Virus record (IMG/VR): IMGVR_UViG_3300045988_120652
DNA length: 64,000 nt
Reading direction: 5' to 3' (one strand)
Origin: a virus
Shown here: piece by piece, positions 8,511 to 64,000 of the stretch
How the letters are laid out: each line of letters begins with the position of its first letter
Numbering within the stretch: position 1 is the stretch's first letter
Made by a program: the position numbers and the translations under genes
Notes under the pieces: model-generated
The model's database searches: none
What the model was told of the DNA's origin: nothing
Seen by the model: only the letters and a program-made list of their open reading frames with translations

Positions 8511-8565
8511 GCATCGAGAATGAGAATGCACTATCTATTAAATAATCAACTAAAATTCATAAGCA

Positions 8566-9462: not shown

Positions 9463-9486
9463 TCATCAATATAAACTATATATATC

Positions 9487-24498: not shown

Positions 24499-24936
24499 AT
24501 GATCACAAAACTCAATTTCACCGACCGCACCATCAAGAGCTATGCCATCCGCAAGCTCACGCCCAAGGAGTGTTTCCGCTTGATGGGCGTTCGCGACAAC
24601 GTAATCGGCACGATGCAGAGCAGCAATGCCCAGGCAGCCGAACGTCTGCCCGACTGGAAGGGCAAGGGTAAACCCGAAGACATGGCTATATCTGCATCAC
24701 AGCAGTACAAGCAAGCTGGAAACAGCATCGTGGTGGACGTGTTGGCCCACATCTACGAGCAGCTTTTCTACCCCGCCCCGCCCAAGCCTCGCCCTGGCGA
24801 ACAGCTCACGCTCTTCGACGACCTCGAAGACTCGCTGCCCGCTTTGCCGCCCCCCCCGCAGCCGACAAGAACGAGGAGAAGATATTCCTCACCACGTTCT
24901 CCGGCTACGACTCTCAGCTCATGGCAGCCGACGTGA
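24499..24936 (+). CDS. C5 DNA methyltransferase C-terminal module (motifs IX and X) plus a Pro-rich linker; the reading frame is lost at the C8 tract
   Basis: IRKLTPKECFRLMGV is motif IX and QQYKQAGNSIVVDVL is motif X. After ...DDLEDSLPALPPPP, the tail (QPTRTRRRYSSPRSP...) looks like out-of-frame sequence. Confidence 0.8.
   Translation: MITKLNFTDRTIKSYAIRKLTPKECFRLMGVRDNVIGTMQSSNAQAAERLPDWKGKGKPEDMAISASQQYKQAGNSIVVDVLAHIYEQLFYPAPPKPRPGEQLTLFDDLEDSLPALPPPPQPTRTRRRYSSPRSPATTLSSWQPT
24850..24857 (+). repeat. C8 homopolymer at the junction between the motif IX-X and motif I-VIII reading frames
   Basis: Read as GCCG-CCCCCCCC-GCAG. One extra C would give ...LPALPPPPAADKNEEKIFLTTFSGYDSQLMAADV..., fusing the two ORFs in frame. 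Confidence 0.8.
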
Positions 24937-31092: not shown

Positions 31093-31152
31093 GCAACGAA
31101 TACTTCATACTTTGACTGGATGTTTCATACGGAAATGTTAACTTTTGCTTTA

Positions 31153-31185
31153 GCTCTGCCGTCCGTGAGGATAGCAGGGCTTTTT
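31153..31185 (+). terminator. Intrinsic terminator (GTCC-GTGA-GGAT hairpin family)
   Basis: GCTCTGCCGTCC-GTGA-GGATAGCAGGGC followed by TTTTT. Confidence 0.7.
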
Positions 31186-31215
31186 CTATGTCCGCACCTT
31201 CTCCCCGTCTTTCCT

Positions 31216-46494: not shown

Positions 46495-49194
46495 GTGAAT
46501 ATGGAAAAGAAGTACATTGACATGGGTAGTGTCGGCATGCACCCTAAAGGGGCATACGACGCGAGTGTGACTTACTGTAAGCTACAGCTTGTGACGCACG
46601 GCGGCAACACCTATCTGAGCAAGGCGGACGGCAACATCGGGCACGAGCCTGTGGGTGAGGACGAGTGGTGGAGCCTGCTCGTGGACGCTAAGAGCGCTCA
46701 CGACGGTGCTCAGAGTGCGCAGGAGGCTGCGGAAGCGGCTAACGCTGCCGCCCAGACTGCTAATGACAAGGCTGCGGAAGCTGCCCAGGCTGCGGAGAGC
46801 GTGACTACTGCTACGGCAGGGCTACAGGCTGCTTTGGACAAGGTGGATGCAGCGGCTACGGCTGCGACTTCGGCTTCGGCTTCGGCACAGGCTCAGGCAA
46901 GCCGTGCGCAGGAGGCTGCTGAGCAGGGCGAAGCTCTCAACCTACAGCTTACCGACACGCTGCGTAAGGCTAAGGCGGAGGTGGATAAGGCTGTGGCTAT
47001 TAACAATACGGCAACAGCTAATGAGCAGGAGCGCGTGAAGGCTGAGCATGAGCGTGCAGATGCCAGCCAGCAGGCTGTGATGAACGCTAACACGGCTGCT
47101 GATTCTGCAAATACTGCTGCCGAGAAGGCTAACGGAGGCGCAGAAAAGGTGTCTGCTGCGGTAACTGCTGCCAGCAACGTTAACGCGACTCTTGCTGACG
47201 ACGGATTGCTGACTGTGACTAATCGCAACGGTGAGAGTAAAAGCGTGAAAGTAGGTGAAGGCGAGAAGGTGAACCAGCTTGTAGCGGACATGAAGGAGAC
47301 TAAGGAGGCTGTGGCACAGAACGCTGCGGACATTGCCGAACTGAAGGAGAACGTTAAGGACTACTATGTAGGCGAGAACGACGAGGTGACGGGCGACCCT
47401 CACTTCAAGAACTGCAAGGGCAACAAGGATTTCTTGGGCGAATGGCATCCGTTCCTTATCGACCATACCGACAACACTGGCGAGGCTACACACCCCGTAG
47501 GTCAGCTGATGGACAATAATCACTTCCGCTTTGTGTCGGGTGCGTTTGCGCCTACCGTTGGTATTACAGAGGAAATGCGTGCTGCGTGTGATGTACAACT
47601 CTATACCGATGCCGAGCACACTACCCCACTGACACTGAAAAATGGTGTCGTCGTTACTGATAAGGCTGGCGCACATCCTTACGATGCAACAGAGGTGTAC
47701 AACTCGCTTGGTTTGGTAGACTTGTACGACGGCGAGGGTAACAAGGTGCGTCAGTTATTGCCTTGGGAGACCACAGAGACCAAGTATTCGGTGATGATTG
47801 GTCGCTACGACACCCTATATCCAGTAGACCGCCAGACAGGCGAGAGCGGTAAGGTGCTGTCGGGTATATTCAAGCGTCAGGTGCGCTACGACGGCATTGA
47901 TACGGGCAAATACCCGTTGCTTGGTACGGCATTGGCACCATGCCTGGTGACGACAGTGGGCAACAAGACACGCAACTTCTTCTTTGCGTATGCGGTAGGT
48001 GACGCTAATACTGCAAGCGGTGCGAGCTCAGCAGGCGCGGACATGTGCTCGATGTTTGACGGAGAGGACAGGACTTATCCGCGGTACAGTATTAACCAGA
48101 TGAGTGACATGCAGTACGCACGAGCTAACAATGCTGACGTAAATGCACCAGTGCCGTTTGCCGAAGGCGGTTATCACGCTATCAACACCTTCACGTTGTG
48201 CATGGAACTGCTTTATGGTACAAAGTATCTGCATGACAAGAACTTGTTCGGCTCGGGAATATCGAGCAACGACTCATGTGCATCGGCGGATGACTGGATG
48301 AATAACGGTGGCGTGAGGGTGCGCGAGAAAGGCACTACAGACTGGACATATAAAAAATGGGGCGACCAAACGCCGTTTGGCGTAAAGTCGGATATGAGCA
48401 AGGTTGGTTTTTCGAACTTTGTCAATCAGGAGAAACCGAAGGAGCAGTGTATGGAGAGTCAGATGGCAGCATCGTGGGCTGTGGAATTTGGCATAGCAGA
48501 AGATACGGAGTATGAGGCATACGGACAGACGTATCGCTACAGAAATGTGACAGGAGTAAAGGGACTGGCTGACGGCGTGATGAACTGCAAGGTGTATCGC
48601 ATCAAGACAGGTGCGTGTATGGGTTATAAGGCTGCGGACAGTAAGGTTGAGTATGACTGTGAGTTGTGTCTACGTCTTAGTCTTGTACATGGTATGAACC
48701 TAAGCGGAGACGTGTTCGGCTACTGGGGCGGCGGCATGGAAATGGTGGGCACGGGAAAGCAGCAGGAGAATACTATCCAGGACAAGATAAAGAACACCTA
48801 CATAGACTTCTACCTTGAGCCAAAACAGAAGAACTGGCTCATGGAAAATAAAACCACCCTTAGCGACTTCAAGACGTTTGCATTTGAGGGCGTGTATGCC
48901 AAGATAGGCACGTTCGGACCTCCAATATTAGGCGGCGGTTACTTCAAGAAGCGTATGGGGCTAACTCCTTACAAGACGGAGAACGGCGGAAATATAGATT
49001 CTTATCAATGCTGCTACGGATGGGCAGAACCGTATTGGCTTGACCGATACGGGCAGCGCGTTCGTATAGCCGTGCGCTTTCGTGGCTTTGCGTCTGCTGC
49101 GTATTGTTCGCCTCGGTTTCTGTATGCGTACTACTCGGCTGCTCATACGTCCGTGTCTTATGGCGGTTCTGCCCAGTGTCGCATCGTGCAATAG
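46495..49194 (+). CDS. Tail fibre / receptor-binding protein carrying the DGR variable region at its C-terminus (likely start ATG 46501)
   Basis: Ala/Gln/Glu-rich coiled N-terminal part. The C-terminal 38 codons are the VR (RFRGFASAAYCSPRFLYAYYSAAHTSVSYGGSAQC), which corresponds to the TR-encoded RFRGNANNANCSPRYLNANNSAANTNVNNGGSAQR. Confidence 0.8.
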   Translation: MNMEKKYIDMGSVGMHPKGAYDASVTYCKLQLVTHGGNTYLSKADGNIGHEPVGEDEWWSLLVDAKSAHDGAQSAQEAAEAANAAAQTANDKAAEAAQAAESVTTATAGLQAALDKVDAAATAATSASASAQAQASRAQEAAEQGEALNLQLTDTLRKAKAEVDKAVAINNTATANEQERVKAEHERADASQQAVMNANTAADSANTAAEKANGGAEKVSAAVTAASNVNATLADDGLLTVTNRNGESKSVKVGEGEKVNQLVADMKETKEAVAQNAADIAELKENVKDYYVGENDEVTGDPHFKNCKGNKDFLGEWHPFLIDHTDNTGEATHPVGQLMDNNHFRFVSGAFAPTVGITEEMRAACDVQLYTDAEHTTPLTLKNGVVVTDKAGAHPYDATEVYNSLGLVDLYDGEGNKVRQLLPWETTETKYSVMIGRYDTLYPVDRQTGESGKVLSGIFKRQVRYDGIDTGKYPLLGTALAPCLVTTVGNKTRNFFFAYAVGDANTASGASSAGADMCSMFDGEDRTYPRYSINQMSDMQYARANNADVNAPVPFAEGGYHAINTFTLCMELLYGTKYLHDKNLFGSGISSNDSCASADDWMNNGGVRVREKGTTDWTYKKWGDQTPFGVKSDMSKVGFSNFVNQEKPKEQCMESQMAASWAVEFGIAEDTEYEAYGQTYRYRNVTGVKGLADGVMNCKVYRIKTGACMGYKAADSKVEYDCELCLRLSLVHGMNLSGDVFGYWGGGMEMVGTGKQQENTIQDKIKNTYIDFYLEPKQKNWLMENKTTLSDFKTFAFEGVYAKIGTFGPPILGGGYFKKRMGLTPYKTENGGNIDSYQCCYGWAEPYWLDRYGQRVRIAVRFRGFASAAYCSPRFLYAYYSAAHTSVSYGGSAQCRIVQ
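49068..49181 (+). repeat. DGR variable region (VR)
   Basis: 114-nt alignment with TR 49424-49537. There are 19 differences, and at 18 of them the TR base is A, mostly at positions 1-2 of AAY codons in the VR reading frame. The remaining one is C in TR versus T in VR. Confidence 0.9.
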
Positions 49195-49202
49195 GCGCAG
49201 CC

Positions 49203-49236
49203 GGGTGCAACCCAGTGCAGCGCGGTGCAACCGCGC
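49203..49236 (+). promoter_or_regulatory. Hairpins just downstream of VR (GGTGCAACC x2); candidate DGR homing-enhancing structure
   Basis: GGGT-GCA-ACCC (49203-49213) and GCGCGG-TGCAA-CCGCGC (49220-49236), 22-55 nt after the end of the VR homology. Confidence 0.5.
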
Positions 49237-49423
49237 CATGTCTTTGGCAATCAGAAACAAAATTAGTAACTTTATAGTGGTTTAAAAGATAGAATAAAAT
49301 GAATCAAGACAAAATATTTCCTCAAAAACAGGACAAGCTCAGCATGAGGGCCGAAGCCTCTGAAGCCTGCATGAGAGGTGACGCTATCCATATAGATGAT
49401 AGCTAAAGAGGTTGGTGTCTCCG

Positions 49424-49537
49424 AGCCGTGCGCTTTCGTGGCAATGCGAATAATGCGAATTGTTCGCCTCGGTATCTGAATGCGAACAACTCGGCTGCTA
49501 ATACGAACGTGAATAATGGCGGTTCTGCCCAACGTCG
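49424..49537 (+). repeat. DGR template region (TR)
   Basis: Adenine-rich counterpart of VR, lying in non-coding sequence 226 nt upstream of the RT gene. Confidence 0.9.
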
Positions 49538-49763
49538 GGCATCATAAATGATGCAGAACTAAGAACACGGGAACACCACTCTCGCTCAGGAGAAGCAGAA
49601 AATATCAAAGACAAGGGATGTGAGCGTAGCACGATGGCTGTACGTGATGCGGCGAACGTGACCGAGAGACATCCTGACGGGCAGACAGTCCCGTCAACCT
49701 TTTAAGCCCGACACTGAATATCAACAGCGGAGAAATCCGCATAAAAACATATATATAACAAAC

Positions 49764-51152
49764 GTGCATAGACCTAACTACATCCCCTTCACTGCCGACG
49801 ACTACATAAAGGCTGTGTGGAGTGCCGCAAAAGGCAGAAAGAAAAGACCCGAGGTAAAGGAGGCATTGAAGGATGTAAAAGGGCTATGCGCAAGTATTGA
49901 ACAACATCTCAAAGATGGAAGCTGGCATGAGGACATCAAGTACCGGAAGCTGACCAAGGTGAACAACAACAAGAAGGTGAGGCATATCGACGCGCCTACG
50001 TTCAGAACTTTAGTGTATGAACATCTGCTGAAGAACAAGTTGGAGCCGATATACCGCAGACGCGACCCGTTGGTGTCGATTAACTGCAAGGAAGGATGCG
50101 GAATAACACCATCGGCGAAGCACAAGGAACTGAAAAGCCACTATGTGCTGCCAAGAGTGAAGCACCTGTTCTACGACCTGCGGGATATGGACTGGGTAGT
50201 GACTGCCGACCAACGTCAATGCTACGCTCACGTGAAGCCGAGCGTACTGCGCAAGGAACTGAAATATCTTATTGGCGACAAGTGGCTGATAGACTTCGCT
50301 GTGGAGCTGTGCTTTGTTGACGGGCAGTTGCCTGTAGGCACACCTACGAGTCCGCTGGCTCACCACATACTGATGCTGAGATTCCATGAATGGCTGTGCC
50401 GAAACACCGAATGGCGGCTGTGCTATGCCGACAACTGCATGGTAGCTTGCCGGACGAAGGAAGAAGCACAACAGATGAAGTGGCGAATAAGGCAGTATTG
50501 GTGGTATGAGCTGAAGATGAGGGCGAAGCGTACAGATACGAAGGTTGCTAATATCAACGACGGTAGAGGGATTGACTTCTGCGGTTATAGGGTGATACGC
50601 AACGCCGACAAGAACGTGACAGACTCGAACAAGGGATATTGCCTTATACGCAAGGGCACATTGCTGAGAGCAAGGATGTGTAACAACGACAATTCGTGGG
50701 GCAGCTACTTCGGACTGATGCGGCACACGGACGGATTCGGAGAGATGGTAAAAATAGAAAAGGAGATGAAGTTAAGAGAACTGACAAAAAAGATTCGCAT
50801 AGACCGCAAGATGGACGCTCCGAATATCAAGCCTCTGGAGTTGGCACGTAGCGGACAGGCGTTCACGGTGTTCGATTACGAGATACGCAAGAGCGAGAAG
50901 TCGGGCGAGCCTAACTGGATTAAGATGCTGATAGGTATGCCGGAGGTGACCGAAGACGGCGAGCTTACGGGCAAGATTGTTGCCAGGGAGGTGCATGGTG
51001 GAATGATGGGCATTGTGGCTTGGATGGTGGCAGCGGAGCAGGAGTATGGCAAGAAGACCTTGCTGCCGTTGGAGGACGTGAGGATTGTGGACGAGTGCGG
51101 ATATATCTTTGAAGGCTCGACTAATCAGATGCAGTACATTGATGAATGTTGA
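49764..51152 (+). CDS. Reverse transcriptase (DGR-associated, divergent; GTG start)
   Basis: RT-like blocks are DQRQCYAHVKPSVLRKEL (motif 2-like), QLPVGTPTSPLAHHIL (motif 4-like) and RLCYADNCMVAC (motif 5, YADN in place of YxDD). A C-terminal extension of about 140 aa follows. The gene is adjacent to the TR. Confidence 0.8.
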   Translation: MHRPNYIPFTADDYIKAVWSAAKGRKKRPEVKEALKDVKGLCASIEQHLKDGSWHEDIKYRKLTKVNNNKKVRHIDAPTFRTLVYEHLLKNKLEPIYRRRDPLVSINCKEGCGITPSAKHKELKSHYVLPRVKHLFYDLRDMDWVVTADQRQCYAHVKPSVLRKELKYLIGDKWLIDFAVELCFVDGQLPVGTPTSPLAHHILMLRFHEWLCRNTEWRLCYADNCMVACRTKEEAQQMKWRIRQYWWYELKMRAKRTDTKVANINDGRGIDFCGYRVIRNADKNVTDSNKGYCLIRKGTLLRARMCNNDNSWGSYFGLMRHTDGFGEMVKIEKEMKLRELTKKIRIDRKMDAPNIKPLELARSGQAFTVFDYEIRKSEKSGEPNWIKMLIGMPEVTEDGELTGKIVAREVHGGMMGIVAWMVAAEQEYGKKTLLPLEDVRIVDECGYIFEGSTNQMQYIDEC

Positions 51153-55925: not shown

Positions 55926-55996
55926 GCAAGCAAGAAAAAAAATAAATATACTACAAAAAAGTTATATAAAAATTTGGTTGTATAACGTTTTTGTAG

Positions 55997-56004
55997 TACC
56001 TTTG
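55997..56004 (+). promoter_or_regulatory. -7 promoter element TACCTTTG for hicAB
   Basis: TAnnTTTG match 43 nt upstream of ATG 56047. Confidence 0.45.
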
Positions 56005-56046
56005 CAGTGTGTTAATAAAACAAATGTTTAATCAATTAAAAACAAA

Positions 56047-56229
56047 ATGAAATGGAATGAATTAAAAAGACAGGCTTTAAAACATGGTTTCGTACTTGAC
56101 AAGCACGGCAGCAAGCACGATATTTATGTTAATGAAAAAACAGGCGTTACCGTGCAACTTGAAAGACATGGAGCTGCAGAAGCAAAAAAGGGCATCGCCT
56201 TAAAGCTTCGCAAGCAAATAGGATTCTAA
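56047..56229 (+). CDS. hicA: HicA-family mRNA interferase toxin
   Basis: MKWNELKRQALKHGFVLDKHGSKHDIYVNEKTGVTVQLERHG... fits a 60-aa HicA pattern (GFxxxxxxGSxHxxxxxxxxxxxxxxPxH-like). Confidence 0.8.
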   Translation: MKWNELKRQALKHGFVLDKHGSKHDIYVNEKTGVTVQLERHGAAEAKKGIALKLRKQIGF

Positions 56230-56286
56230 CAACAAGGGCGAGGGGGTGGCACTCCTCCCCCTCGCCTTTAAAAAGATATTAAACAG

Positions 56287-56700
56287 ATGAAAGATAATAA
56301 TTTTTTTGTGACCATCGAGAAAGACAGCGACGGCACATTTATAGCGTACAACGTAGACGAAAGCCCCTACACGCTCATAGGGCGAGGGGCTACAGTGAAG
56401 GAAGCAAAGGCAGACTTTGCAAACTCCATGCAGGAAGTAAAGGCAAGCGAGGAGGAAAGGGAAGGCGCAGCCGCTCCCATTCTGTCGGCTGTGCCTGTGT
56501 TTAGCTTCGATCTCTCGTCGCTGTTTGAATATTATTCGATGCTGAACGTGAGCGCCTTTGCGCGCTATCTGGGCATTAACGAGACTTTAATGCGTCAGTA
56601 TAAGAAAGGAAATACATATATTTCTGATGTGCAACTACAAAAGATTGAAGACGGTTTGCACCGTTTAGGGGCTGACTTCCTCGGGCTTCGGCTCGTGTAA
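56287..56700 (+). CDS. hicB: HicB-family antitoxin with a C-terminal HTH
   Basis: FFVTIEKDSDGTFIAYNVDESPYTLIGRGATVKEAKADF fits the HicB N-domain pattern. The C-terminal FARYLGINETLMRQYKKGNTYIS is HTH-like. Confidence 0.7.
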   Translation: MKDNNFFVTIEKDSDGTFIAYNVDESPYTLIGRGATVKEAKADFANSMQEVKASEEEREGAAAPILSAVPVFSFDLSSLFEYYSMLNVSAFARYLGINETLMRQYKKGNTYISDVQLQKIEDGLHRLGADFLGLRLV

Positions 56701-57897: not shown

Positions 57898-58022
57898 AAT
57901 ATATAATATTAGTATTTGGTATTGCAAAAGTATATAAAATATTAAAAGTATATAGTATATACTTAGTTAATAAGTATCAAATGTATAGTGTTTTCTATTG
58001 TTTTATTTTGTTATACTAAGTA

Positions 58023-58081
58023 TTTACTATATCTTTGCAAGCGTAAACAAATAACAAAACAAAAATACAAGATTATGAAAG
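58023..58081 (+). promoter_or_regulatory. Promoter-leader cassette, copy 2, with a perfect -7 element TATCTTTG (58030-58037)
   Basis: TTTACTATATCTTTGCAAGCGTAAACAAATAACAAAACAAAAATACAAGATTATGAAAG. Confidence 0.55.
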
Positions 58082-60414
58082 CAACATTTAATGAAATCAT
58101 CGAGAACTTAGTAAAAGTATTAACCGACAAGGCCGAGAGCGCACAGTATTACAGCGATAACGAGCAATATATTTGCCTGTGCGGATGGTGTGGCATCATG
58201 TCGCCCGTATCTCGCCCGGCATACGTTAAGACATTCGGCAAGGACACAACCGAGGAAGCCGAGGCCAAGGCCCGCGAGATCATCGCCAAGAAGGAGGCAG
58301 CACGCCAGCGCACCAAGTACGCAGAGCACGCACGCGAAGCCGACAACCTCGAAGGAGTGCCCGCCGTTGGTGGCTTTTTCTGGGCAGATAATAGCGGGCT
58401 AAAGTGTGACGGAGGCCGCGGCCTATTCGAGGAGCTGCACGCCCTCAACTACTACACACACGCAGCCGAGAAGCCCGCCCGCTTGTGCTGCGTTGAGCAA
58501 ATTATAAAAGTATCTGATGAAGATCTTGCACGCCCTGGACTCGCCGACGAGCTTGTAACACGTTACAACCTTCAGGGCTTCGCACGCTCTGAGGATGTGA
58601 ACGAAGATGATAACACATATAACGACGACCCCGAGAAATTGGCAACCTTTTACACCGTTGGCGCTCTCGTTGTGTCGCCGTCGGGCAAATACTACCTAAT
58701 CGACTCCGAGGGCTACAACTACGCCCGTTATATTTACGTCCCTATCGAATGGCCCGTAATGCTCGCCGACGAGGTGGCAAGCGTCAAGGCAGAGGAAGAA
58801 GCACGCAAGGCAGAAGAGGAGCGCCAGGCAGCAGAGGAGAAGGCGCAGCGCCTCGCTGAGTATCGCGCACGCTGTGCGAAGTGGTCGCCCCTTATGCGTA
58901 ACGTGGAGGAAATGGAGCAGGACGGCACAGCAACCGCCCGAAAGATAGACAACGCTCGAAAGGCTAATATATTGGCCATGTGTGCCGCTGCCTTCCCCGG
59001 TGTCAAGTTCTCCGTATCTGTTCGCCGTGGCTGGGGTGCCGATTTTGAATTAACATGGACCGACGGCCCGACGGTTGAAGAGTTCAACGAAAAAACCGAC
59101 CTTAATTTGTTTTGCAGCCGTCGCGACACATTCGACGGCTGGGACGATTCAACCGATGTTATTTTCTCCGAGTTTTCCTACTTCGCACGCCTGACGATGG
59201 GCAGCAACGGCGGAAACGTTAAGACCATCCGCGAAATGTCGGACGAGGCACGCGCCGAACTGTTGGCGCAGATCTTCGAGGCCGTGCCAGCTGCCAACAA
59301 CCGCGACAAATACGGCTATACAGTAGCGTACACCTACACCAACAAGGAGGCCGAGGCAGTGGCCGCAGCCTTAGGCGTGGACGTGTTCGACATCTTCGCG
59401 CACGGCTACACCGAGAACGCCGAGACCATCGCCCGCCGTGCCTGGAATGTGCGCAGCTACACCAAGACCACAACGCCAGAGCCTACCGACCCGAAGCCGG
59501 GCAAGGCTCAGGCGAAGGCGACCGAGCAGACCGAAGCCGCACCCGCTCAGGATGCAGCACAGACCGACGACGCACCCGCCGAAGGTCTGGAGCTGGTAGA
59601 GACCGCCGAGGGCGTGGCAGTGATAGGCGACAGCCGCACGACATACCGCAACCGCAAGGCGATAAAAGCACACGGCGCACGATGGAACAAGACCGCGCAG
59701 CAGTGGCAAGCAAGCGAGCCGGAGGCCGTGGCACGTCTGCGCGAGTGGTTCGGGGTATCAACTACCCCGACCGTTGAAGAAGGCGACACAACCAACGAGA
59801 GCGAGCCGCAGGACGAGCACACACACACCACCGAGAGCGACAGCACAACCGCCCAGACTGCCGCAGATGCTACGTTATACGAGGCCGACGAAATCACGGC
59901 AACCGCACCGACCGACACCGCCGAAGACTTTGCGGACGTGCTGGCAGCCGACCGCCTGAAACTGTTGCGCAGTGCTGCCGCTGACTTTGACCGACTGACA
60001 CAAGCCGGGGAGCATGTAGCCGCAGTAAATGCGCGGCTTTCCGCCCTCTTTGCGTGTGGCGTGGACGTTGCCGACCTCGTGCGGCTTCACGACTACAAGG
60101 CCGACTATTACGCGCGACAGCGTGCCGCCGTAGTGCTCACGGCTGACGAGTTCCGCACGTTGTACGGTTGCAGCAAGGAGCACGCCGAGGACTGCGGCAG
60201 GGTGTGGCAGTTCGCACGGGGAACGTATAACGCCATCGACTACGAATTGCACGAAATTCGAGAGTTTGGCGGGGTTTATAGTATCGTGTTTAATTTATGC
60301 GAGCTATTCCCCGAGGGTTCCTTTTCTGTTAGTTATAACACCTACGAAGAAGCTGCGGCGAAACTTGAAAAACTTCGCCCTGGTGTGCGACTGATTGCCG
60401 AACCTGCGGCATAA
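58075..60414 (+). CDS. Large early protein (779 aa) with an Ala/Glu-rich coiled segment and a DUF5710-like module
   Basis: The start is set by the duplicated leader. SRTTYRNRKAIKAHGARWNKTAQQWQA resembles the KxxAKxLGARWDxxxKxW module found at the ends of some primase/topoisomerase-type proteins. Function unknown. Confidence 0.55.
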   Translation: MKATFNEIIENLVKVLTDKAESAQYYSDNEQYICLCGWCGIMSPVSRPAYVKTFGKDTTEEAEAKAREIIAKKEAARQRTKYAEHAREADNLEGVPAVGGFFWADNSGLKCDGGRGLFEELHALNYYTHAAEKPARLCCVEQIIKVSDEDLARPGLADELVTRYNLQGFARSEDVNEDDNTYNDDPEKLATFYTVGALVVSPSGKYYLIDSEGYNYARYIYVPIEWPVMLADEVASVKAEEEARKAEEERQAAEEKAQRLAEYRARCAKWSPLMRNVEEMEQDGTATARKIDNARKANILAMCAAAFPGVKFSVSVRRGWGADFELTWTDGPTVEEFNEKTDLNLFCSRRDTFDGWDDSTDVIFSEFSYFARLTMGSNGGNVKTIREMSDEARAELLAQIFEAVPAANNRDKYGYTVAYTYTNKEAEAVAAALGVDVFDIFAHGYTENAETIARRAWNVRSYTKTTTPEPTDPKPGKAQAKATEQTEAAPAQDAAQTDDAPAEGLELVETAEGVAVIGDSRTTYRNRKAIKAHGARWNKTAQQWQASEPEAVARLREWFGVSTTPTVEEGDTTNESEPQDEHTHTTESDSTTAQTAADATLYEADEITATAPTDTAEDFADVLAADRLKLLRSAAADFDRLTQAGEHVAAVNARLSALFACGVDVADLVRLHDYKADYYARQRAAVVLTADEFRTLYGCSKEHAEDCGRVWQFARGTYNAIDYELHEIREFGGVYSIVFNLCELFPEGSFSVSYNTYEEAAAKLEKLRPGVRLIAEPAA

Positions 60415-60430
60415 ACTCCTATATTATAGC

Positions 60431-60459
60431 GTGTGCGAAATATTGAGGATTCCGCACAC
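60431..60459 (+). terminator. Hairpin after the large early gene
   Basis: GTGTGCG-(15 nt)-CGCACAC with no clear T-run. It is flanked by two CCTATATTATAG motifs. Confidence 0.4.
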
Positions 60460-60509
60460 GCTCGAGAAAGAAACCCTATATTATAGAATCCTTAGAACAT
60501 TAGAAAATT

Positions 60510-60779
60510 ATGGCAAATCACAATCCAGTTATAACAAACACCCTCCCTACATGGGTATTTATTCAGTCCACAGCATCAGGCAACTATCGCCACGAAATTC
60601 AGCGCGTGCCTTCTGGCTTCATGGTGTTCGTCAACGTGAGCGACGAGAACGGCGGTGGCTGCTCCTTTCCTCAGAAGTTCGCCACCTATCAGGCAGCATT
60701 TGAAATGCTTGTGCACTTTCGCCCTGGCTCAAAGCTCACGGAGCGAATCAACGGAGCCGGCGACATCAAAATTTATTAA
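60510..60779 (+). CDS. Hypothetical early protein
   Basis: 89-aa ORF preceded by CCTATATTATAG (60475-60486). Confidence 0.45.
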   Translation: MANHNPVITNTLPTWVFIQSTASGNYRHEIQRVPSGFMVFVNVSDENGGGCSFPQKFATYQAAFEMLVHFRPGSKLTERINGAGDIKIY

Positions 60780-60815
60780 ACCTATATTATAGACCCTATA
60801 AAATATTGAGGACTT

Positions 60816-61100
60816 ATGAAACGAGTATATATATTAAACACTTGCGATGAATGGAAATCGTGGAGTTCATTCCATCTTTATGGTATCTGGGCATCTTCTA
60901 AGGCTGGCACCCGTCGTCTTTTAAATGCTATTATTGCAGGCATTGAAAAATACTATTTTTCGTATGAAGACAAGTATATGGATATAGCGCAACAAATAGA
61001 AAGTTTGCGTGAAGATGCAAAAACAGATTGCAACACCTTTTATTCTCTTTTGCAGAGTAAATTGATTTACGGATCAATCGAATTGGTGGAGATTCAGTAA
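60816..61100 (+). CDS. Hypothetical early protein
   Basis: 94-aa ORF preceded by CCTATATTATAG (60781-60792). Confidence 0.45.
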   Translation: MKRVYILNTCDEWKSWSSFHLYGIWASSKAGTRRLLNAIIAGIEKYYFSYEDKYMDIAQQIESLREDAKTDCNTFYSLLQSKLIYGSIELVEIQ

Positions 61101-61153
61101 TAACGAAGCATTGACATTTTAATACTTTATAGAATCGTATTTTTTGTTTTTAG

Positions 61154-61236
61154 GCTGTTGGCGGTCCGTGAGGATAGCCACAGCACACCGCCCGCACGGA
61201 TGGCACGTGGACGAGGTTCGACTCCTTGTCGGGCGA
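61154..61236 (+). ncRNA. Structured element copy 1: GNRA-loop hairpin (61154-61184) plus tRNA-like acceptor/T-arm minihelix (61189-61236)
   Basis: Acceptor-like stem CGCCCG/CGGGCG (61189-61194 / 61230-35). Inner hairpin CACG-GATGGCA-CGTG. T-arm CGAGG-TTCGACT-CCTTG (61212-61228). There is no D arm or anticodon arm. Confidence 0.4.
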
Positions 61237-61269
61237 CTATGTTATAAACCCTATAAAAAATTAGACGAT

Positions 61270-61551
61270 ATGAAAGCAACAGTAACAACACCGACCGCGC
61301 CAGACGTGAGCGCAGCGGACGTGGCAAGATCTCTCGGCAGATGCCTGGCGCTCTGCCTTATGTTCCTCTTGCAGTGTATGGCGAAAGCCTTCGGATTGGC
61401 ACAGCGTGCAGTATTGAGCGTGTGTCAGTGGCTTAATACTCGCCACAACTTCACCGACCAGGAAGACCCTTTGATTATGACCGGATGGCAATATCTCGGC
61501 TTTGGTGTGATGGTAATGTTCGTGGCAACAGTAATCTCTATTAAATGGTAA
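61270..61551 (+). CDS. Small membrane protein
   Basis: Start at MKATVTT, an internal ATG of ORF 61144..61551 whose upstream part reads through the structured element. Two hydrophobic segments. Confidence 0.45.
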   Translation: MKATVTTPTAPDVSAADVARSLGRCLALCLMFLLQCMAKAFGLAQRAVLSVCQWLNTRHNFTDQEDPLIMTGWQYLGFGVMVMFVATVISIKW

Positions 61552-61602
61552 AAAAGCCCCTCAAGGGTGTCCTATTATAGAACATTAAAAATACTAAGGA
61601 TT

Positions 61603-62226
61603 ATGGCAAAGATATTTGTGGACGAGACTGTAGGTAATTTGCAAAGTTTTGTTGGATTCTATGATTCAATCTGGAGCCCAGATGATGAATTATATTATGA
61701 GTGCGTAGAAGAAGATCTGAAGGAGGATGTTGATTTTACCTTCGACTATAAGCAGTATCAGAACGACATCTGCAAAGCATATACGGAGGTCTGGGAATTG
61801 TGGATGCAGGAGTTTATCAGCGACGATATAGAACTGGAGTTCGTAGAGGTTCACAGTCCACGATACTACAATTTCGAAAATGATTCTTGTCGCGTAAAAA
61901 TTAGCTTGACACAGGCTGCGGAGGATGCTATTATAGCCAAGATAGAACAACACCGCAATCAGCTGGCCAAGTGGATAAAGAAGAACCACACAAGCTATGA
62001 TGGCTTCTTTTCTAATCTATCCAACGACATCGATCAGTGGCCCATTCGTTTATTTGACAACGATGAAACTTTTCAGTCTGCCTATCTCTTTTGTATGCTC
62101 TATTATATTGTTAAGGCAGAATATATAGCGACAGGAGAAACTGAAAGTCTTGAATACGAGGCATGCGGTCGCATACGTAAAGATATTAGCGTAACTTCAT
62201 ATATGAAGGATATAAAAGTTGCTTGA
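61603..62226 (+). CDS. Hypothetical early protein
   Basis: Start at MAKIFVDE, preceded by CCTATTATAG (61571-61580). Confidence 0.5.
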   Translation: MAKIFVDETVGNLQSFVGFYDSIWSPDDELYYECVEEDLKEDVDFTFDYKQYQNDICKAYTEVWELWMQEFISDDIELEFVEVHSPRYYNFENDSCRVKISLTQAAEDAIIAKIEQHRNQLAKWIKKNHTSYDGFFSNLSNDIDQWPIRLFDNDETFQSAYLFCMLYYIVKAEYIATGETESLEYEACGRIRKDISVTSYMKDIKVA

Positions 62227-62490
62227 TTGTATGAAAACATCCAGTACAATTCATTCCTTCCTGCTCAGTGAGCAGGAAGGATACGCTCCTCACGGCTCAG
62301 GAACGCCCCTGAAGCGTGTTGCAGGTTATACCCACCACTCCGGCAGACTTCGATCGCACGGTGGCAGCTCTCAAGGAGCGAGGCATGATAGCCCATCACG
62401 ATACCGACCGCACATTCTGCATCATCCACCTGGCAAGCGGCGACCACGACGGGAAGCACCCAGAACGGCACATTGCCATCACCTATTACA

Positions 62491-62569
62491 GGCGGTCCGC
62501 GAGGATAGCCACAGCACAACGCCCACCACGGCAAGGCGTGGCACCAGGTTCGAGTTCCTGAATGGGCGA
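62491..62569 (+). ncRNA. Structured element copy 2: hairpin (62491-62510) plus tRNA-like minihelix (62520-62569)
   Basis: Acceptor-like stem CGCCCA/TGGGCG. Relative to copy 1, G-C is replaced by A-T at the same pair. Inner hairpin CCACG-GCAAGG-CGTGG. T-arm-like CAGG-TTCGAGTT-CCTG. The 3' flank GGGCGACTATGTTATAAACCCTATAAAAA is identical to copy 1. Confidence 0.4.
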
Positions 62570-62601
62570 CTATGTTATAAACCCTATAAAAATTAAGCAA
62601 T

Positions 62602-63231
62602 ATGATTCTACAATTAACAAAACAGAGTACAGCCCAAGAAATAAAGGCGTACTTTGAAGAAGTATTAAAATTGTCGAAAGACAGCAAGGAATTTTCGGTT
62701 AATCTGGATGATGTGTGGCCGTTGGTGTATTCGGCTAAAGAAAAAGCGGTCAGAGCTTTAAAATCTAACGATTTGTTTCTGCAAAACGTTGATTATCAAG
62801 TTTTAGCCCAAAATGGCGAAAACTCTGGAGTTTTAGCCCAAAACGGGGGAAAAGTCAGAGATGGTCGCCCGACAGAGATTTACATGCTTTCCGTCCCCTG
62901 CCTTGAGTTCTTCATCGCCCGTAAGGTTCGCCCAGTGTTCGAGGTCTACCGTCAGGTATTCCATAAGGTGGCAAGTGGTGAGATTATTCATCCGGTACCT
63001 GTATACTCTAAGCCTTGCGACCTGGAAACTACCCTCTTGCCATTGCGAGACTACACAAATGAGATTTATCAGCGTTGGAAGCGGCTCTTCAACCTCTCAA
63101 ATAATAGCGACCGAGTAAAAAAAGAATATGATAACTGGATTGATACATATGAGAACCTCTGTTATTACACCTCGCAGATGATATATCTGGAGACGATGGA
63201 GAAGCTGGAGGGAAATCATTTTATAAAATAG
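62602..63231 (+). CDS. Phage antirepressor-like protein (Ant/KilAC-like; tentative)
   Basis: DDVWPLVYSAKEKAVRALKSN...GRPTEIYMLSVPCLEFFIARKVRPVFEVYRQVFHKV resembles phage antirepressor domains. There is an internal duplication VLAQNGENSGVLAQNGGKV. Confidence 0.4.
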   Translation: MILQLTKQSTAQEIKAYFEEVLKLSKDSKEFSVNLDDVWPLVYSAKEKAVRALKSNDLFLQNVDYQVLAQNGENSGVLAQNGGKVRDGRPTEIYMLSVPCLEFFIARKVRPVFEVYRQVFHKVASGEIIHPVPVYSKPCDLETTLLPLRDYTNEIYQRWKRLFNLSNNSDRVKKEYDNWIDTYENLCYYTSQMIYLETMEKLEGNHFIK

Positions 63232-63265
63232 AGAAGTATTTACGAACAAATAAGAATAAACAACA

Positions 63266-63445
63266 ATGGAAAAGACAGTTATAACAATCGACATGGACAA
63301 AGCAAGCCTCCGTGAGGCAATGACACGCATCATCGAGTACATCACTCTTACACCTCCCGATCCCGACGAGTTCGGCAGCAAGGAGCGTATAGAGTACAAC
63401 TTAGGACTGGACGCATTATTCACCTGTTTGCGCCAAACTTACTAA
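63266..63445 (+). CDS. Small hypothetical protein (59 aa, below the ORF-track cutoff)
   Basis: MEKTVITIDMDKASLREAMTRIIEYITLTPPDPDEFGSKERIEYNLGLDALFTCLRQTY*. Confidence 0.4.
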   Translation: MEKTVITIDMDKASLREAMTRIIEYITLTPPDPDEFGSKERIEYNLGLDALFTCLRQTY

Positions 63446-63510
63446 AAAGACGGCATGATATAACATCATACGTATTAATCAAATCATTAACTAACAAAAA
63501 TTCAGAATTT

Positions 63511-63846
63511 ATGAACAAAGAGAAATCTGACAAGCTTAAGAAGCTGATCAATGACTTTCGCGCCGACTTTCAGAAGTTGACGGAAGGAGAGAAAGGCTTC
63601 GGCCTTGTGCTTGTACATCACAACGAAATAGAGCCGGCGGAAGAAGACGGCAACGTTGCCGTAGCCACTTTTGTTGCAGGCGAGAAAAGCGACGTATTGT
63701 ATTCTTTGCATGCGCTTGACAAAAAGACGGATCTGATAAGTGATTACGCCAGACTGCGTGCATCAATAGCCTTAGACAAATTCAAGGAGTTGCTGTTAGG
63801 CGACTCCGAGAAGAAGGACGGCGAGAGCAACAAGCTCGCTAACTAA
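63511..63846 (+). CDS. Hypothetical early protein
   Basis: 111-aa ORF. Confidence 0.45.
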   Translation: MNKEKSDKLKKLINDFRADFQKLTEGEKGFGLVLVHHNEIEPAEEDGNVAVATFVAGEKSDVLYSLHALDKKTDLISDYARLRASIALDKFKELLLGDSEKKDGESNKLAN

Positions 63847-63855
63847 CACACTCCA

Positions 63856-63905
63856 TCCCGCGCCCGGCAAGGCCCTTTGCGAAGGTTCGACTCCTTCGGT
63901 GGGAT
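63856..63905 (+). ncRNA. tRNA-like minihelix copy 3
   Basis: Acceptor-like stem TCCCGC/GTGGGA (one G-T pair). Perfect T-arm GAAGG-TTCGACT-CCTTC (63881-63897). About 36 nt downstream lies a terminator of the same hairpin family. Confidence 0.4.
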
Positions 63906-63941
63906 CTTATAATCATAATCAAAGTATTTTTTTTGTTTCAG

Positions 63942-63978
63942 GCTGCTGGCGGTCCGCGAGGATAGCGAGCAGCTTTTT
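63942..63978 (+). terminator. Intrinsic terminator (GTCC-GCGA-GGAT hairpin family)
   Basis: GCTGCTGGCGGTCC-GCGA-GGATAGCGAGCAGC followed by TTTTT. Confidence 0.7.
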
Positions 63979-64000
63979 GAATTTTGAATTAGGAATGTTG

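What the first reader, a model, noticed from the sequence alone, without database searches (positions are those of the whole stretch)
61154..63905. Three copies of a ~50-nt tRNA-like acceptor/T-arm minihelix in the early region
Intergenic sequences at 61189-61236, 62520-62569 and 63856-63905 each contain a T-arm (stem plus TTCGACT or TTCGAGTT loop, the GGTTCGAnTCC hallmark of tRNAs). This is followed by a 6-bp stem that pairs with sequence about 30 nt upstream, like an acceptor stem. A small inner hairpin replaces the D and anticodon arms. Between copies 1 and 2 the acceptor-like stem changes from CGCCCG/CGGGCG to CGCCCA/TGGGCG, a compensatory G-C to A-T change that supports real pairing. Copies 1 and 2 are preceded by a GNRA-loop hairpin (GGCGGTCC-GYGA-GGATAGCC). 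They are followed by an identical 29-nt block (GGGCGACTATGTTATAAACCCTATAAAAA) that runs into the next gene's start region. They are too short to be tRNAs. Possible roles are RNase P or tRNase Z processing signals that punctuate early polycistronic RNA, decoys for tRNA-targeting host defences, or tRNA-3'-half-like recombination targets.
Basis: seen in the sequence. Interest (0 to 1): 0.7.

Follow-up and report, generated by a model that had tools for sequence, protein, structure and literature searches.

The report
tRNA-like minihelices punctuating phage early genes
A gut (probably Prevotella) phage carries a conserved family of about 50-nt RNA structures that copy only the top half of a tRNA and sit between its small early genes. 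They most likely let the host's tRNA-processing enzymes cut the long early transcript into stable pieces, but no cleavage has been shown.

Summary
Three 48-51 nt elements (61189-61236, 62520-62569, 63855-63905) fold as an acceptor-like stem, a small inner hairpin and a T-arm with a canonical T-loop.

They belong to a family with at least 58 distinct hairpin+minihelix modules. A covariance model finds 133 minihelix copies in 78 gut viral and metagenomic loci plus the window. One relative lies in a Prevotella MAG.

Covariation is strong: 92% of cells pair in register against 33-44% when slid, and 15 of 28 pairs show compensatory changes. G·U pairs fit only the coding strand, which argues for RNA.

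The acceptor and T stems stack to about 12 layers in every structural type parsed. Most copies have an ACNA tail and no CCA. ARAGORN finds no tRNA and Rfam finds no family in the window.

Two thirds are preceded, 3-4 nt upstream, by a conserved GNRA hairpin. At homologous operon ends that hairpin is followed either by a U-run (a terminator) or by a minihelix.

The best reading is that these are host RNase P/RNase Z entry sites. They would punctuate a polycistronic early RNA and leave hairpin-capped 3' ends. This function is inferred, not shown.

I class it as a new variant of a known kind.

The parts
58007..58037 (+). Canonical Bacteroidota-type promoter (TTTG-N19-TATCTTTG). It is the likely start of the transcription unit that contains all three minihelices.
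   Evidence: It is one of only two + strand matches to TTTG-N18-22-TANNTTTG in the window. No such match lies between it and 64000. Its role as a promoter is inferred.
61140..61153 (+). U-rich tract (TTTTTTGTTTTTAG) that regularly precedes the GNRA hairpin in close relatives.
   Evidence: It is conserved as GTATTTTT(T)GTTTT in the close lineage but absent in distant ones (L051). It does not fit TANNTTTG exactly.
61154..61184 (+). GNRA hairpin 1. An outer stem GCUGU.GGC/GCCACAGC encloses a G·A mismatch and the inner stem-loop GUCC-GUGA-GGAU.
   Evidence: Fold. Covariation of the outer stem, and an invariant inner stem with a G·U pair.
61185..61188 (+). 4-nt single-stranded linker (ACAC). The predicted RNase P cut lies between 61188 and 61189.
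   Evidence: The linker is 3-4 nt in most modules of alignment A2; copy 2 of this window has 9 nt. The cleavage is inferred.
61189..61236 (+). Minihelix copy 1 (type A1). It has a 6-bp acceptor, a 4-bp inner hairpin with a 7-nt loop, a 6-bp T-stem with loop TTCGACT, and discriminator-like A61236.
   Evidence: Model R1 scores it 64.2 bits. Covariation.
61237..61269 (+). A/U-rich leader that includes the conserved block TTATAAACCCTATAAAAA, running up to the ATG at 61270.
   Evidence: The block keeps its distance from the ATG, not from the minihelix, in L028, L096 and L012.
62491..62510 (+). GNRA hairpin core of module 2. The outer stem is missing, and a recombination junction lies at its 5' edge.
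62520..62569 (+). Minihelix copy 2 (type A2). It has acceptor CGCCCA/TGGGCG, a 5-bp inner hairpin, a T-arm with an 8-nt loop, and A62569.
   Evidence: Model R1 scores it 66.9 bits. It lies inside ORFs 62231-62596 and 62316-62561.
62564..62592 (+). Second copy of the 29-nt block, identical to 61231-61259. It runs into the start region of gene 62602-63231.
63855..63905 (+). Minihelix copy 3 (type B). It has a 6-7 bp acceptor, a 3-bp inner hairpin and a 6-bp T-stem with loop TTCGACT. It begins 9 nt after the stop codon at 63844-63846.
   Evidence: Model R1 scores it 15.6 bits, E 0.037. The type-B family shows covariation.
63906..63941 (+). A/U-rich spacer (CTTATAATCATAATCAAAGTATTTTTTTTGTTTCAG) between the B minihelix and the next GNRA hairpin.
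   Evidence: ATAATCATAATC and the T-run are conserved in relatives.
63942..63978 (+). GNRA hairpin 3 followed by UUUUU. This is an intrinsic-terminator-like end of the unit. In some relatives an A2 minihelix takes the place of the U-run.
   Evidence: Fold of -24.1 kcal/mol, z = -4.0. Alignment A5.
31152..31186 (+). Fourth copy of the GNRA hairpin (CGUCC-GUGA-GGAUAG core) followed by UUUUU. It is terminator-like and sits just upstream of the portal gene.
   Evidence: Fold of -19.3 kcal/mol, z = -3.6. Portal assignment.

Best explanation
The three elements are RNA structures transcribed with the early genes. They mimic the acceptor/T-arm "top half" and elbow of a tRNA and have no anticodon arm.

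**Proposed mechanism**
- A long early transcript probably starts at the host-type promoter at 58007-58037. It ends at the hairpin+U-run at 63942-63978.
- Host RNase P recognises each minihelix through its T-loop and its 12-layer helix, and cuts at its 5' edge.
- Host RNase Z, or another 3' tRNA-maturation activity, may cut after the discriminator-like A.
- These cuts split the polycistronic RNA into separate messages.
- Where a GNRA hairpin lies 3-4 nt upstream, the RNase P cut leaves the upstream RNA ending in that hairpin. That is the same end an intrinsic terminator would produce, but transcription does not have to stop.
- The B-type copy just after a stop codon would either be cut away or be left as a tRNA-like 3' cap.

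**Shown:** the structure, its conservation and covariation, its strand, its intergenic placement, the 12-layer geometry, and the interchange of minihelix and U-run.

**Inferred:** the promoter and transcript extent, every cleavage, and the enzymes involved.
For: 1. **The structure is under selection.**
   - 58 distinct modules: 92.2% of cells paired against 33-44% in slid registers.
   - 15 of 28 pairs have compensatory changes.
   - Covariation score is 0.249 against a shuffled mean of 0.106 (0 of 500 shuffles reach it).
   - Type B: 93.3% paired, with two T-stem positions compensatory.
2. **It is RNA of the coding strand.**
   - There is an invariant G·U pair plus U·G variants that would be A·C mismatches on the other strand.
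   - The elements share the strand of the long ORFs in 83 cases against 9.
3. **tRNA hallmarks are kept.**
   - G52 G53, C56 and A58, and C61 C62 are invariant; U54, U55 and R57 are nearly so.
   - By eye, the 3' strand from T-loop to acceptor end is 12 nt in most of the structural types parsed (A1, A2, B, CACTCC, CGCTCC, and elements in L014 and L078). It is 11-12 in the TGGGCAC and GGGGCG types.
   - 12 is also the mode in an automatic fold survey: 42 of 102 distinct sequences, 13 of which did not fold with a closed T-loop.
[quoted passage not shown] Replacing the T-loop shifts the site. The 12 bp act as the ruler (PMC11143913).
5. **Punctuation-like placement.**
   - In L078, single minihelices lie 12-13 nt after a stop codon and about 40 nt before the next ATG, and this repeats between consecutive genes.
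   - In L065 and L051, hairpin-N2-3-minihelix units repeat between genes.
6. **A natural swap.** At homologous operon ends the GNRA hairpin is followed by TTTTT in the window, L004 and L007. In L042, L070 and L041 it is followed by ACAA plus an A2 minihelix.
7. **No internal host-type promoter.** No canonical host promoter match lies between 58037 and 64000.
8. **Host enzymes would be required.** No tRNA-processing enzyme was found among the roughly 55 window ORFs scanned against Pfam.
Against: - There are no RNA data of any kind, so no end has been mapped.
- The +1 base is C, U or A rather than the preferred G, and -1 is A or C rather than U.
- The 3' tail is ACNA, so the RCCA contact with RNase P is at best half kept.
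- Several A2 copies, including copy 2 here, have an 8-nt T-loop and a mismatch or bulge in the stack.
- U55 is C in some relatives.
- The U-rich tract before the hairpin resembles a degenerate -7 promoter box. If it fires, the hairpin+minihelix would be a 5' leader rather than an internal site.
- In this window the B copy has no protective hairpin upstream, so a cut there would expose the upstream message.
- The strict sequence conservation of the GNRA hairpin core is not explained by a simple end-protection role.
Confidence: 0.45

Rival explanations
1. The minihelices are precursors of trans-acting small RNAs. Once excised, and perhaps given a CCA end, the roughly 50-nt anticodon-less tRNA mimics would bind or saturate a host factor that recognises the tRNA elbow or acceptor arm. 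Candidates include a tRNA-targeting defence nuclease, the CCA-adding enzyme, EF-Tu or SmpB.
For: - The T-loop and 12-layer stack are conserved more tightly than a cutting signal might need.
- There are several diverged types per genome, and tandem units not followed by a gene. Examples are A2 at operon ends and the tandem modules in L010.
- One relative scores as the tRNA-like domain of tmRNA: RF00023, 22.3 bits, E 4.7e-5, below the gathering score of 47.
Against: - No anticodon loop is present, which is the usual target of tRNA-directed defence nucleases (general knowledge).
- There is no G3·U70 and no encoded CCA.
- Placement tightly between genes is what a cis signal predicts.
- No partner protein is encoded nearby.
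Confidence: 0.2
2. They are stable structural caps and spacers. Cutting happens in the A/U-rich spacers by a general endonuclease such as an RNase E/G- or Y-type enzyme. The minihelix and the GNRA hairpin simply block exonucleases at the new ends. No tRNA enzyme is involved.
For: - A/U-rich single-stranded spacers lie between B and the next hairpin.
- The structures are G+C-rich and stable.
- The GNRA hairpin also works with a U-run as a terminator-type end.
Against: - End protection does not require a T-loop sequence, a fixed 12-layer stack or a conserved AC after the stem. All of these are conserved across diverged types.
Confidence: 0.12
3. Hairpin+minihelix is a 5' leader of independently transcribed early genes. 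It would act in cis as a regulatory element, for example a binding site for a tRNA-binding protein or an antitermination signal for RNA polymerase.
For: - The module lies 33 nt upstream of the ATG of the same gene (MKATVTT...) in many relatives. It is preceded there by a T-rich tract ending in TTTG that resembles a -7 box.
Against: - Copy 2 lacks the T-rich tract.
- Many A2 copies are followed by no gene but by the next operon's promoter region.
- The same T-rich tract precedes hairpins that are terminators.
- No alternative pairing typical of a switch is visible.
Confidence: 0.1
4. The primary role is at the DNA level. The conserved cassettes would be recombination substrates that shuffle early genes, like the PeSL cassettes of T4-type phages. 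The RNA fold would be secondary.
For: - There is a clean indel of exactly the A2 minihelix.
- In this window an A2 centre carries A1-type flanks, including the identical 29-nt block.
- The module has moved into the end of an ORF, with a junction inside the hairpin.
- Nearly identical cassettes flank different genes in L065.
Against: - Recombination needs sequence identity, not compensatory base changes. The covariation and the strand-specific G·U pairs show selection on a folded single strand.
- Shuffling is more likely a consequence than the reason for the structure.
Confidence: 0.08
5. They are decayed tRNA genes, or attP-type fragments of a host tRNA or tmRNA 3' end.
For: - The T-arm and acceptor 3' strand look like a tRNA 3' half.
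- ARAGORN forces a 93-nt 'tRNA-Ala' over hairpin+A2 in L010 and L018.
Against: - That ARAGORN call builds its acceptor from G·U pairs with the T-tract and ignores the covarying stem.
- Both acceptor strands are kept and covary.
- There are up to 5 copies per locus.
- No integrase was found among the ORFs scanned.
- The shortened form is conserved in 78 loci.
Confidence: 0.03

Closest known systems
Acceptor-stem/T-stem-loop 'minihelix' model substrates of bacterial RNase P (AT1, pMini3bp and similar)
   Same: Both have a coaxial acceptor and T stem of 12 bp capped by a T-loop, with a single-stranded 5' leader. Such hairpins are cut at the correct site by RNase P RNA with or without its protein. 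The T-loop and the 12-bp distance set the site (PMC11143913).
   Different: The model substrates are laboratory constructs that carry a 3' RCCA. These elements are natural and sit inside an mRNA. They carry an extra inner hairpin at the junction and end in ACNA. Cleavage has not been tested.
MALAT1 / MEN-beta 3'-end module with mascRNA (Rfam RF01684)
   Same: By analogy, a small tRNA-like structure lies immediately downstream of an end-protecting structure. In that system RNase P cuts at its 5' side to make the mature 3' end of the upstream RNA and RNase Z releases the small RNA (own knowledge). Copy 1 gives the only tRNA-type Rfam hit in the region: 17.6 bits, E 4.5.
   Different: mascRNA is a eukaryotic nuclear RNA with a cloverleaf that keeps a short anticodon arm, and its protecting structure is a triple helix rather than a GNRA hairpin. 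The Rfam score is far below the gathering score of 42.5, so this is a resemblance and not membership.
tRNA-like domain of tmRNA (RF00023)
   Same: The topology matches: acceptor stem and T-arm with the anticodon side replaced by another helix. One relative (L051 10628-10685) scores 22.3 bits, E 4.7e-5, on the two ends of the tmRNA model.
   Different: These elements have no mRNA-like part, no pseudoknots, no G3·U70 and no encoded CCA. ARAGORN finds no tmRNA, and the score is below the gathering score of 47.
tRNA punctuation of mitochondrial polycistronic transcripts
   Same: tRNA-shaped structures lie between coding regions with almost no other intergenic sequence. There they serve as the signals by which RNase P and RNase Z release the messages (own knowledge). 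The layout in L078 is the closest parallel.
   Different: In mitochondria the punctuating elements are functional tRNAs. Here they lack an anticodon arm and cannot decode.
RNase III processing hairpins of the phage T7 early region; RNase P processing of the P1/P7 C4 RNA and of E. coli operon mRNAs
   Same: In these cases a phage or operon uses a host endoribonuclease to cut a polycistronic RNA at structured intergenic sites and leave stable 3' hairpins. The RNase P examples are cited in PMC11143913; the T7 case is from own knowledge.
   Different: The T7 sites are long double-stranded hairpins for RNase III. The known RNase P sites in mRNAs are idiosyncratic. They are not a repeated, conserved tRNA-top-half family.
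PeSL (promoter-early stem-loop) cassettes of T4-type phages
   Same: Repeated regulatory cassettes flank small, variable early genes and act as recombination points (own knowledge). Indels, relocation and chimeric modules are seen here.
   Different: PeSLs are a promoter plus a simple stem-loop. They have no tRNA-like part.

Membership tests
Canonical tRNA | Cloverleaf with D-arm and anticodon arm, recognised by tRNA finders | tested here: not met
   ARAGORN finds 0 genes in the window. Rfam gives no tRNA hit even at E<=10 in 60900-64000. The elements are 48-51 nt.
Canonical tRNA | T-arm with the T-loop consensus (G53, U54 U55 C56 R57 A58, C61) | tested here: met
   G52 G53, C56 and A58, and C61 C62 are invariant and U54, U55 and R57 are nearly invariant in 58 modules. 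Copy 2 has one extra loop base.
Canonical tRNA | 12-bp acceptor/T-stem stack | tested here: met
   It is met as 6+6, 7+5 or 5+7, with mismatches counted as layers. The modal 3' strand length is 12 nt, supported by manual parsing of the sequences.
Canonical tRNA | Encoded or addable 3' CCA after the discriminator | tested here: not met
   The tails are ACTA, ACAA, GCAA, ACGA and, for type B, TCTT. Whether CCA is added after trimming cannot be tested here.
RNase P minihelix-type substrate | Acceptor and T-stem stack of 12 bp with a T-loop and a single-stranded 5' leader | tested here: met
   A 3-4 nt unpaired linker precedes the stem in most modules; copy 2 of this window has 9 nt.
RNase P minihelix-type substrate | 3' RCCA that pairs with the P15 loop | tested here: not met
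   Only A73 and C74 are kept; position 75 is A, U or G.
RNase P minihelix-type substrate | Cleavage by RNase P at the 5' edge of the stem | not testable with these tools
   This needs in vitro cleavage or end mapping.
tmRNA | tRNA-like domain together with a tag reading frame and pseudoknots; G3·U70 | tested here: not met
   ARAGORN finds no tmRNA. Only a sub-threshold hit to the tRNA-like domain occurs, in one relative. The acceptor stems have no G3·U70.
mascRNA-menRNA (RF01684) | Score at or above the Rfam gathering threshold | tested here: not met
   17.6 bits against 42.5, E 4.5.
Intrinsic terminator | G+C-rich hairpin directly followed by a U-run | tested here: met
   This is met for the hairpins at 63942-63978 and 31152-31186. 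It is not met for the hairpins before copies 1 and 2, which are followed by the minihelix.
attP / tRNA 3'-half remnant | Identity to the 3' end of a host tRNA or tmRNA gene, with an integrase nearby | tested here: inconclusive
   No integrase was found among the scanned ORFs. No host genome was available for comparison. Covariation of both acceptor strands argues against this reading.

The most novel reading that the evidence does not exclude
The minihelices are excised by RNase P and RNase Z into a new class of phage-encoded, anticodon-less mini-tRNA mimics of about 50 nt, possibly repaired with CCA. These would act in trans during takeover, for example as decoys or inhibitors of host factors or defences that read the tRNA elbow and acceptor arm. 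The cutting of the early transcript would be a by-product.
Probability: 0.15. Interest if true: 0.85.

Novelty: new variant of a known kind. Interest (0 to 1): 0.62.

Why it matters
**If the processing model holds**
- It would be the first bacterial-virus case of dedicated, non-decoding tRNA-shaped signals used to punctuate messages. That principle is known from mitochondria and from MALAT1.
- It would show that a hairpin plus an RNase P site can stand in for a transcription terminator.
- It would give a handle on gene expression in abundant, uncultured Prevotella phages of the human gut.
- It would provide a compact, portable RNA-processing module for Bacteroidota engineering.

**If the elements act in trans instead**
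- They would be a new kind of tRNA mimic in phage-host conflict.

**In either case**
- The covariation-supported model allows such elements to be annotated in viromes, where tRNA finders miss them or mis-call them as in L010 and L018.

Tried and rejected
**Searches that found nothing**
- ARAGORN and Rfam at gathering and E-value thresholds found no tRNA, tmRNA or other family in the window.
- Megablast of 60000-64000 and blastn of the module against GenBank phages gave no match.
- Four literature searches, plus a search for the hairpin sequence itself, found no description of this element. One candidate catalogue paper has no supplement held as text.

**Leads dropped**
- The genome-contig scan gave one true hit, a Prevotella MAG. 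The four Schaalia/Actinomyces hits are chance matches in G+C-rich coding DNA.
- The ARAGORN 'tRNA-Ala(agc)' over hairpin+A2 in L010 and L018 was rejected. Its acceptor is made of G·U pairs with the T-tract, and it conflicts with the covarying stem.
- The sigma-70 promoter and simple terminator scan was uninformative for this host type.
- The T-rich tract as a canonical Bacteroidota promoter was rejected as an exact match. TTTG-N-TANNTTTG occurs only at 55973 and 58007 on the + strand. A weak promoter cannot be excluded.
- Searches for phage-encoded tRNA enzymes or an integrase found none among the ORFs scanned.
- The automatic count of stack length from minimum-energy folds was noisy, because flanks create alternative folds. 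I relied on the mode and on manual parsing.
- MAFFT mis-aligned type B with type A, so type B was analysed separately.

Full report
**1. The observation**

Reading 60900-64000 confirms three elements at the stated positions.

- Copy 1 (61189-61236) has a CGCCCG/CGGGCG outer stem and a CACG-GAUGGCA-CGUG inner hairpin. Its T-arm is ACGAGG-UUCGACU-CCUUGU, and an unpaired A follows the outer stem.
- Copy 2 (62520-62569) has CGCCCA/UGGGCG and a CCACG/CGUGG hairpin. Its T-arm is weaker: 4 bp plus a C·A mismatch, with an 8-nt loop UUCGAGUU.
- Copy 3 (63855-63905) has (A)UCCCGC/GUGGGA(U), a 3-bp inner hairpin and CGAAGG-UUCGACU-CCUUCG.

Minimum-energy folds give exactly these Y-shapes. The energies alone are only modestly unusual: z = -3.6 and -2.3 for copies 1 and 2 folded with their upstream hairpins, and -1.0 for copy 3. 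ARAGORN finds no tRNA or tmRNA in the window. Rfam finds nothing at gathering thresholds. A permissive Rfam search gives only a chance-level hit of copy 1 to mascRNA-menRNA (17.6 bits, E 4.5).

The GNRA hairpin GGCGGUCCGYGAGGAUAGC is present four times against 0.03 expected. It lies before copies 1 and 2. It also lies after copy 3 at 63948 and at 31157, and at those two sites it is followed by UUUUU. The 29-nt block occurs twice.

**2. The setting**

- All long ORFs are on the + strand.
- The window encodes a tape-measure-like protein, a head-maturation protease and a portal distantly related to that of a Polaribacter phage.
- It also encodes a lysozyme, DNA methylases and nucleotide-metabolism enzymes, and a diversity-generating retroelement.
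- It is therefore a tailed phage, and it has no close relative in GenBank phage records.
- The only genuine hit in reference genomes is a contig binned in an uncultured Prevotella MAG from a Hadza gut sample.
- Promoters of the Bacteroidota type (TTTG-N19-21-TAnnTTTG) occur on the + strand at 55973-56004 and 58007-58037.
- The host is therefore probably Prevotella.
- The 55-64 kb stretch holds many small ORFs of unknown function, a polyvalent LPD29-domain protein and a HicA-like toxin. It looks like an early, host-takeover region. That label is an inference.

**3. A family, not three chance hairpins**

Scanning IMG/VR for the hairpin gave 28 loci. Scanning metagenomes for the hairpin followed by a T-loop motif gave 63 more, mostly from human gut assemblies. 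Most of these carry hairpin+minihelix modules in several diverged structural types.

An alignment of 58 distinct modules was tested against the four-helix structure:

- 92.2% of cells form standard pairs, against 33-44% when the 3' partners are slid by 1-3 columns.
- 15 of 28 pairs have changes on both sides.
- 126 cells show double changes, against 32 in shuffles.
- The covariation score is 0.249 against 0.106, and 0 of 500 shuffles reach it.

RNAalifold independently recovers the hairpin, acceptor and T stems.

There is an invariant G·U pair in the hairpin, and there are U·G variants elsewhere. These would be A·C mismatches on the other strand. The fold therefore belongs to the strand that is transcribed with the genes. 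The elements share the strand of the long ORFs in 83 cases against 9, with 41 unclear.

A covariance model of the minihelix alone behaves as follows:

- It finds only the three copies in the 64-kb window.
- It finds 133 copies in 78 sources, with one to five per locus.
- 96 of the 133 have the GNRA hairpin within 30 nt upstream.

Type B (copy 3) forms its own subfamily, with 93.3% pairing and compensatory changes at two T-stem positions.

**4. Anatomy that points to tRNA-handling enzymes**

- The T-loop positions that define the tRNA T-loop are invariant or nearly so.
- The split between the two stems varies: 6+6, 7+5 or 5+7. Mismatches and a bulged A occur in some types.
- Even so, the 3' strand from the end of the T-loop to the end of the outer stem is 12 nt in most types I parsed by hand. 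It is 11-12 in two types.
- 12 is also the mode of an automatic survey: 42 of 102 distinct sequences, 13 of which had no closed T-loop in the fold. Most outliers are alternative folds caused by the flanks.
- After the stem comes A (sometimes G or U) and then a nearly invariant C. The next base is rarely C, giving ACUA, ACAA, GCAA or ACGA. CCA is not encoded.
- A 3-4 nt unpaired linker, usually RCAM, precedes the stem in most modules. Copy 2 of this window has 9 nt.

According to a recent review of RNase P (PMC11143913):

- Replacing the T-loop lowers efficiency and shifts the site.

The elements meet these requirements. They do not meet the 3' RCCA requirement.

**5. Arrangement**

- *L078.* A lone minihelix lies 12-13 nt after a stop codon. 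It is followed by ACAA and about 40 A/U-rich nucleotides before the next ATG. The same unit repeats after the next gene.
- *L065.* Two consecutive genes are each followed by the same string of elements. In order these are a small hairpin, a B-type minihelix, an A/U-rich spacer, the GNRA hairpin, a second minihelix and ACAA.
- *L051.* Two hairpin-N3-minihelix-ACAA units stand in tandem.
- *The window.* The unit that probably starts at the 58007 promoter contains module 1 between genes 60816-61100 and 61270-61551. Module 2 lies before gene 62602-63231. Copy 3 begins 9 nt after the stop of 63511-63846. The GNRA hairpin with a U-run follows at 63942-63978.
- No canonical promoter match lies inside this stretch.

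**6. A natural swap**

I aligned the operon end of seven relatives. After the B minihelix, the spacer and the GNRA hairpin, two alternatives appear:

- The window, L004 and L007 continue directly with UUUUUGAAUUUUGAAUU.
- L042, L070 and L041 have ACAA plus a complete A2 minihelix before the same UGAAUUUUGAAUU repeats.

At one homologous position, then, the hairpin is completed either by a U-run, making an intrinsic terminator, or by a tRNA-like minihelix. This suggests that the two arrangements give the same result, namely an RNA whose 3' end is the GNRA hairpin. That is what an RNase P cut 3-4 nt after the hairpin would produce. It is the logic of the MALAT1-mascRNA module, here in a phage.

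**7. Recombination**

- In this window, copy 2 has an A2-type centre but A1-type flanks, including the identical 29-nt block.
- Its hairpin has lost the outer stem.
- It sits at the end of an ORF (62382-62561 in its shortest form). In that ORF, two of the three differences from L001 are synonymous, so it may be a real gene that now ends inside the minihelix.
- In L084 the same A2 lies in the usual place, after B.

The modules therefore recombine through their conserved ends, much as PeSL cassettes do in T4-type phages. I take this as a consequence of repetition rather than the reason for the fold.

**8. Explanation and rivals**

I put the RNase P/RNase Z punctuation model at about 0.45. It accounts for several observations:

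- the T-loop and the 12-layer ruler;
- the single-stranded borders;
- the coding-strand polarity;
- the intergenic packing;
- the pairing with an upstream hairpin, and the swap with a U-run;
- the absence of phage-encoded tRNA enzymes among the ORFs scanned.

Its weak points are these:

- There are no RNA data.
- The bases at +1, -1 and 75 are non-preferred.
- The T-arm is imperfect in many A2 copies.
- The U-rich tract before the hairpin could be a weak promoter.
- The near-invariant sequence of the hairpin core is unexplained.

The rivals, with my estimates:

| Rival | Estimate |
|---|---|
| Trans-acting tRNA mimics or decoys | 0.2 |
| Plain structural caps with cuts in the A/U spacers | 0.12 |
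| cis-regulatory 5' leaders | 0.1 |
| Recombination cassettes as the primary role | 0.08 |
| tRNA or att remnants | 0.03 |

**9. Comparison with known systems**

- The elements work most like RNase P minihelix substrates and like the MALAT1/mascRNA 3'-end module.
- Their layout recalls mitochondrial tRNA punctuation and the T7 early RNase III sites.
- Their topology recalls the tRNA-like domain of tmRNA. One relative gives a sub-threshold tmRNA hit (22.3 bits, E 4.7e-5).
- They are not members of the tRNA, tmRNA or mascRNA families, because the defining tests fail.
- ARAGORN's 'tRNA-Ala' in L010 and L018 is an artefact.
- I found no description of the element in the searchable literature.

I therefore class it as a new variant of a known kind. 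The structure and its conservation are well supported. The function remains to be shown.

Noticed in passing
window 46495-51152: This is a complete diversity-generating retroelement. The variable repeat (49068-49181) lies at the C-terminus of the 899-aa protein (46495-49194). The template repeat is at 49424-49537 and the reverse transcriptase at 49764-51152. Every difference inside the repeat is an A in the template.
   Followed up: partly
window 63974-64000; L004 6483-6570: Five or more TTTTGAAT(T) repeats flank a G+C-rich hairpin (GTGCGCCGTGGGCGCA) just after the terminator. A perfect TTTG-N20-TAccTTTG promoter follows. This may be an operator or origin-like control region between two transcription units.
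   Followed up: no
window 55973-56700: A HicA-toxin-like 60-aa ORF (56047-56229; Pfam HicA_toxin, E 1e-8) is followed by a 137-aa ORF that looks like its antitoxin partner. A canonical Bacteroidota promoter at 55973-56004 precedes the pair.
   Followed up: no
window 16459-17385: There is a full-length LysR-type transcription regulator (HTH_1 plus LysR_substrate) inside the phage structural/replication region. This is unusual cargo for a phage.
   Followed up: no
window 24499-25811: A C5 cytosine methylase appears split and permuted. The upstream ORF (24499-24936) matches the C-terminal end of the Pfam profile (positions 270-322). The overlapping downstream ORF (24921-25811) matches positions 24-216.
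   Followed up: no
window 62255-62281: A very stable 12-bp hairpin (UCCUUCCUGCUC-AGU-GAGCAGGAAGGA; the 46-nt stretch folded gives -22.8 kcal/mol, z = -4.4) starts about 30 nt after the stop of gene 61603-62226 and has no U-run. The 62227-62490 stretch is G+C-rich and its coding status is unclear. L001 and L091 carry a deletion of about 62 nt there.
   Followed up: partly
L014 5080-5187 (- strand): A relative has a longer tRNA-like element after the GNRA hairpin. It has an acceptor stem, a 7-nt GG-containing joiner, a 9-bp arm with a 13-nt loop, a T-arm, and a tail that reads C-CCA. It may be an intermediate between a D-armless tRNA and the minihelices. ARAGORN does not call it.
   Followed up: no
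L010 11980-12072 and L018 8757-8849 (- strand): ARAGORN reports a 93-nt 'tRNA-Ala(agc)' that spans the T-tract, the GNRA hairpin and the A2 minihelix. Its acceptor stem is almost all G·U pairs. This is a likely source of false tRNA annotations in gut viromes.
   Followed up: yes
window 7986-9876: A nucleotide-metabolism cluster holds a guanylate-kinase-like protein, a ThyX-type thymidylate synthase and a MazG pyrophosphohydrolase. A BT4734-like primase-type protein lies next to it at 6732-7832.
   Followed up: no
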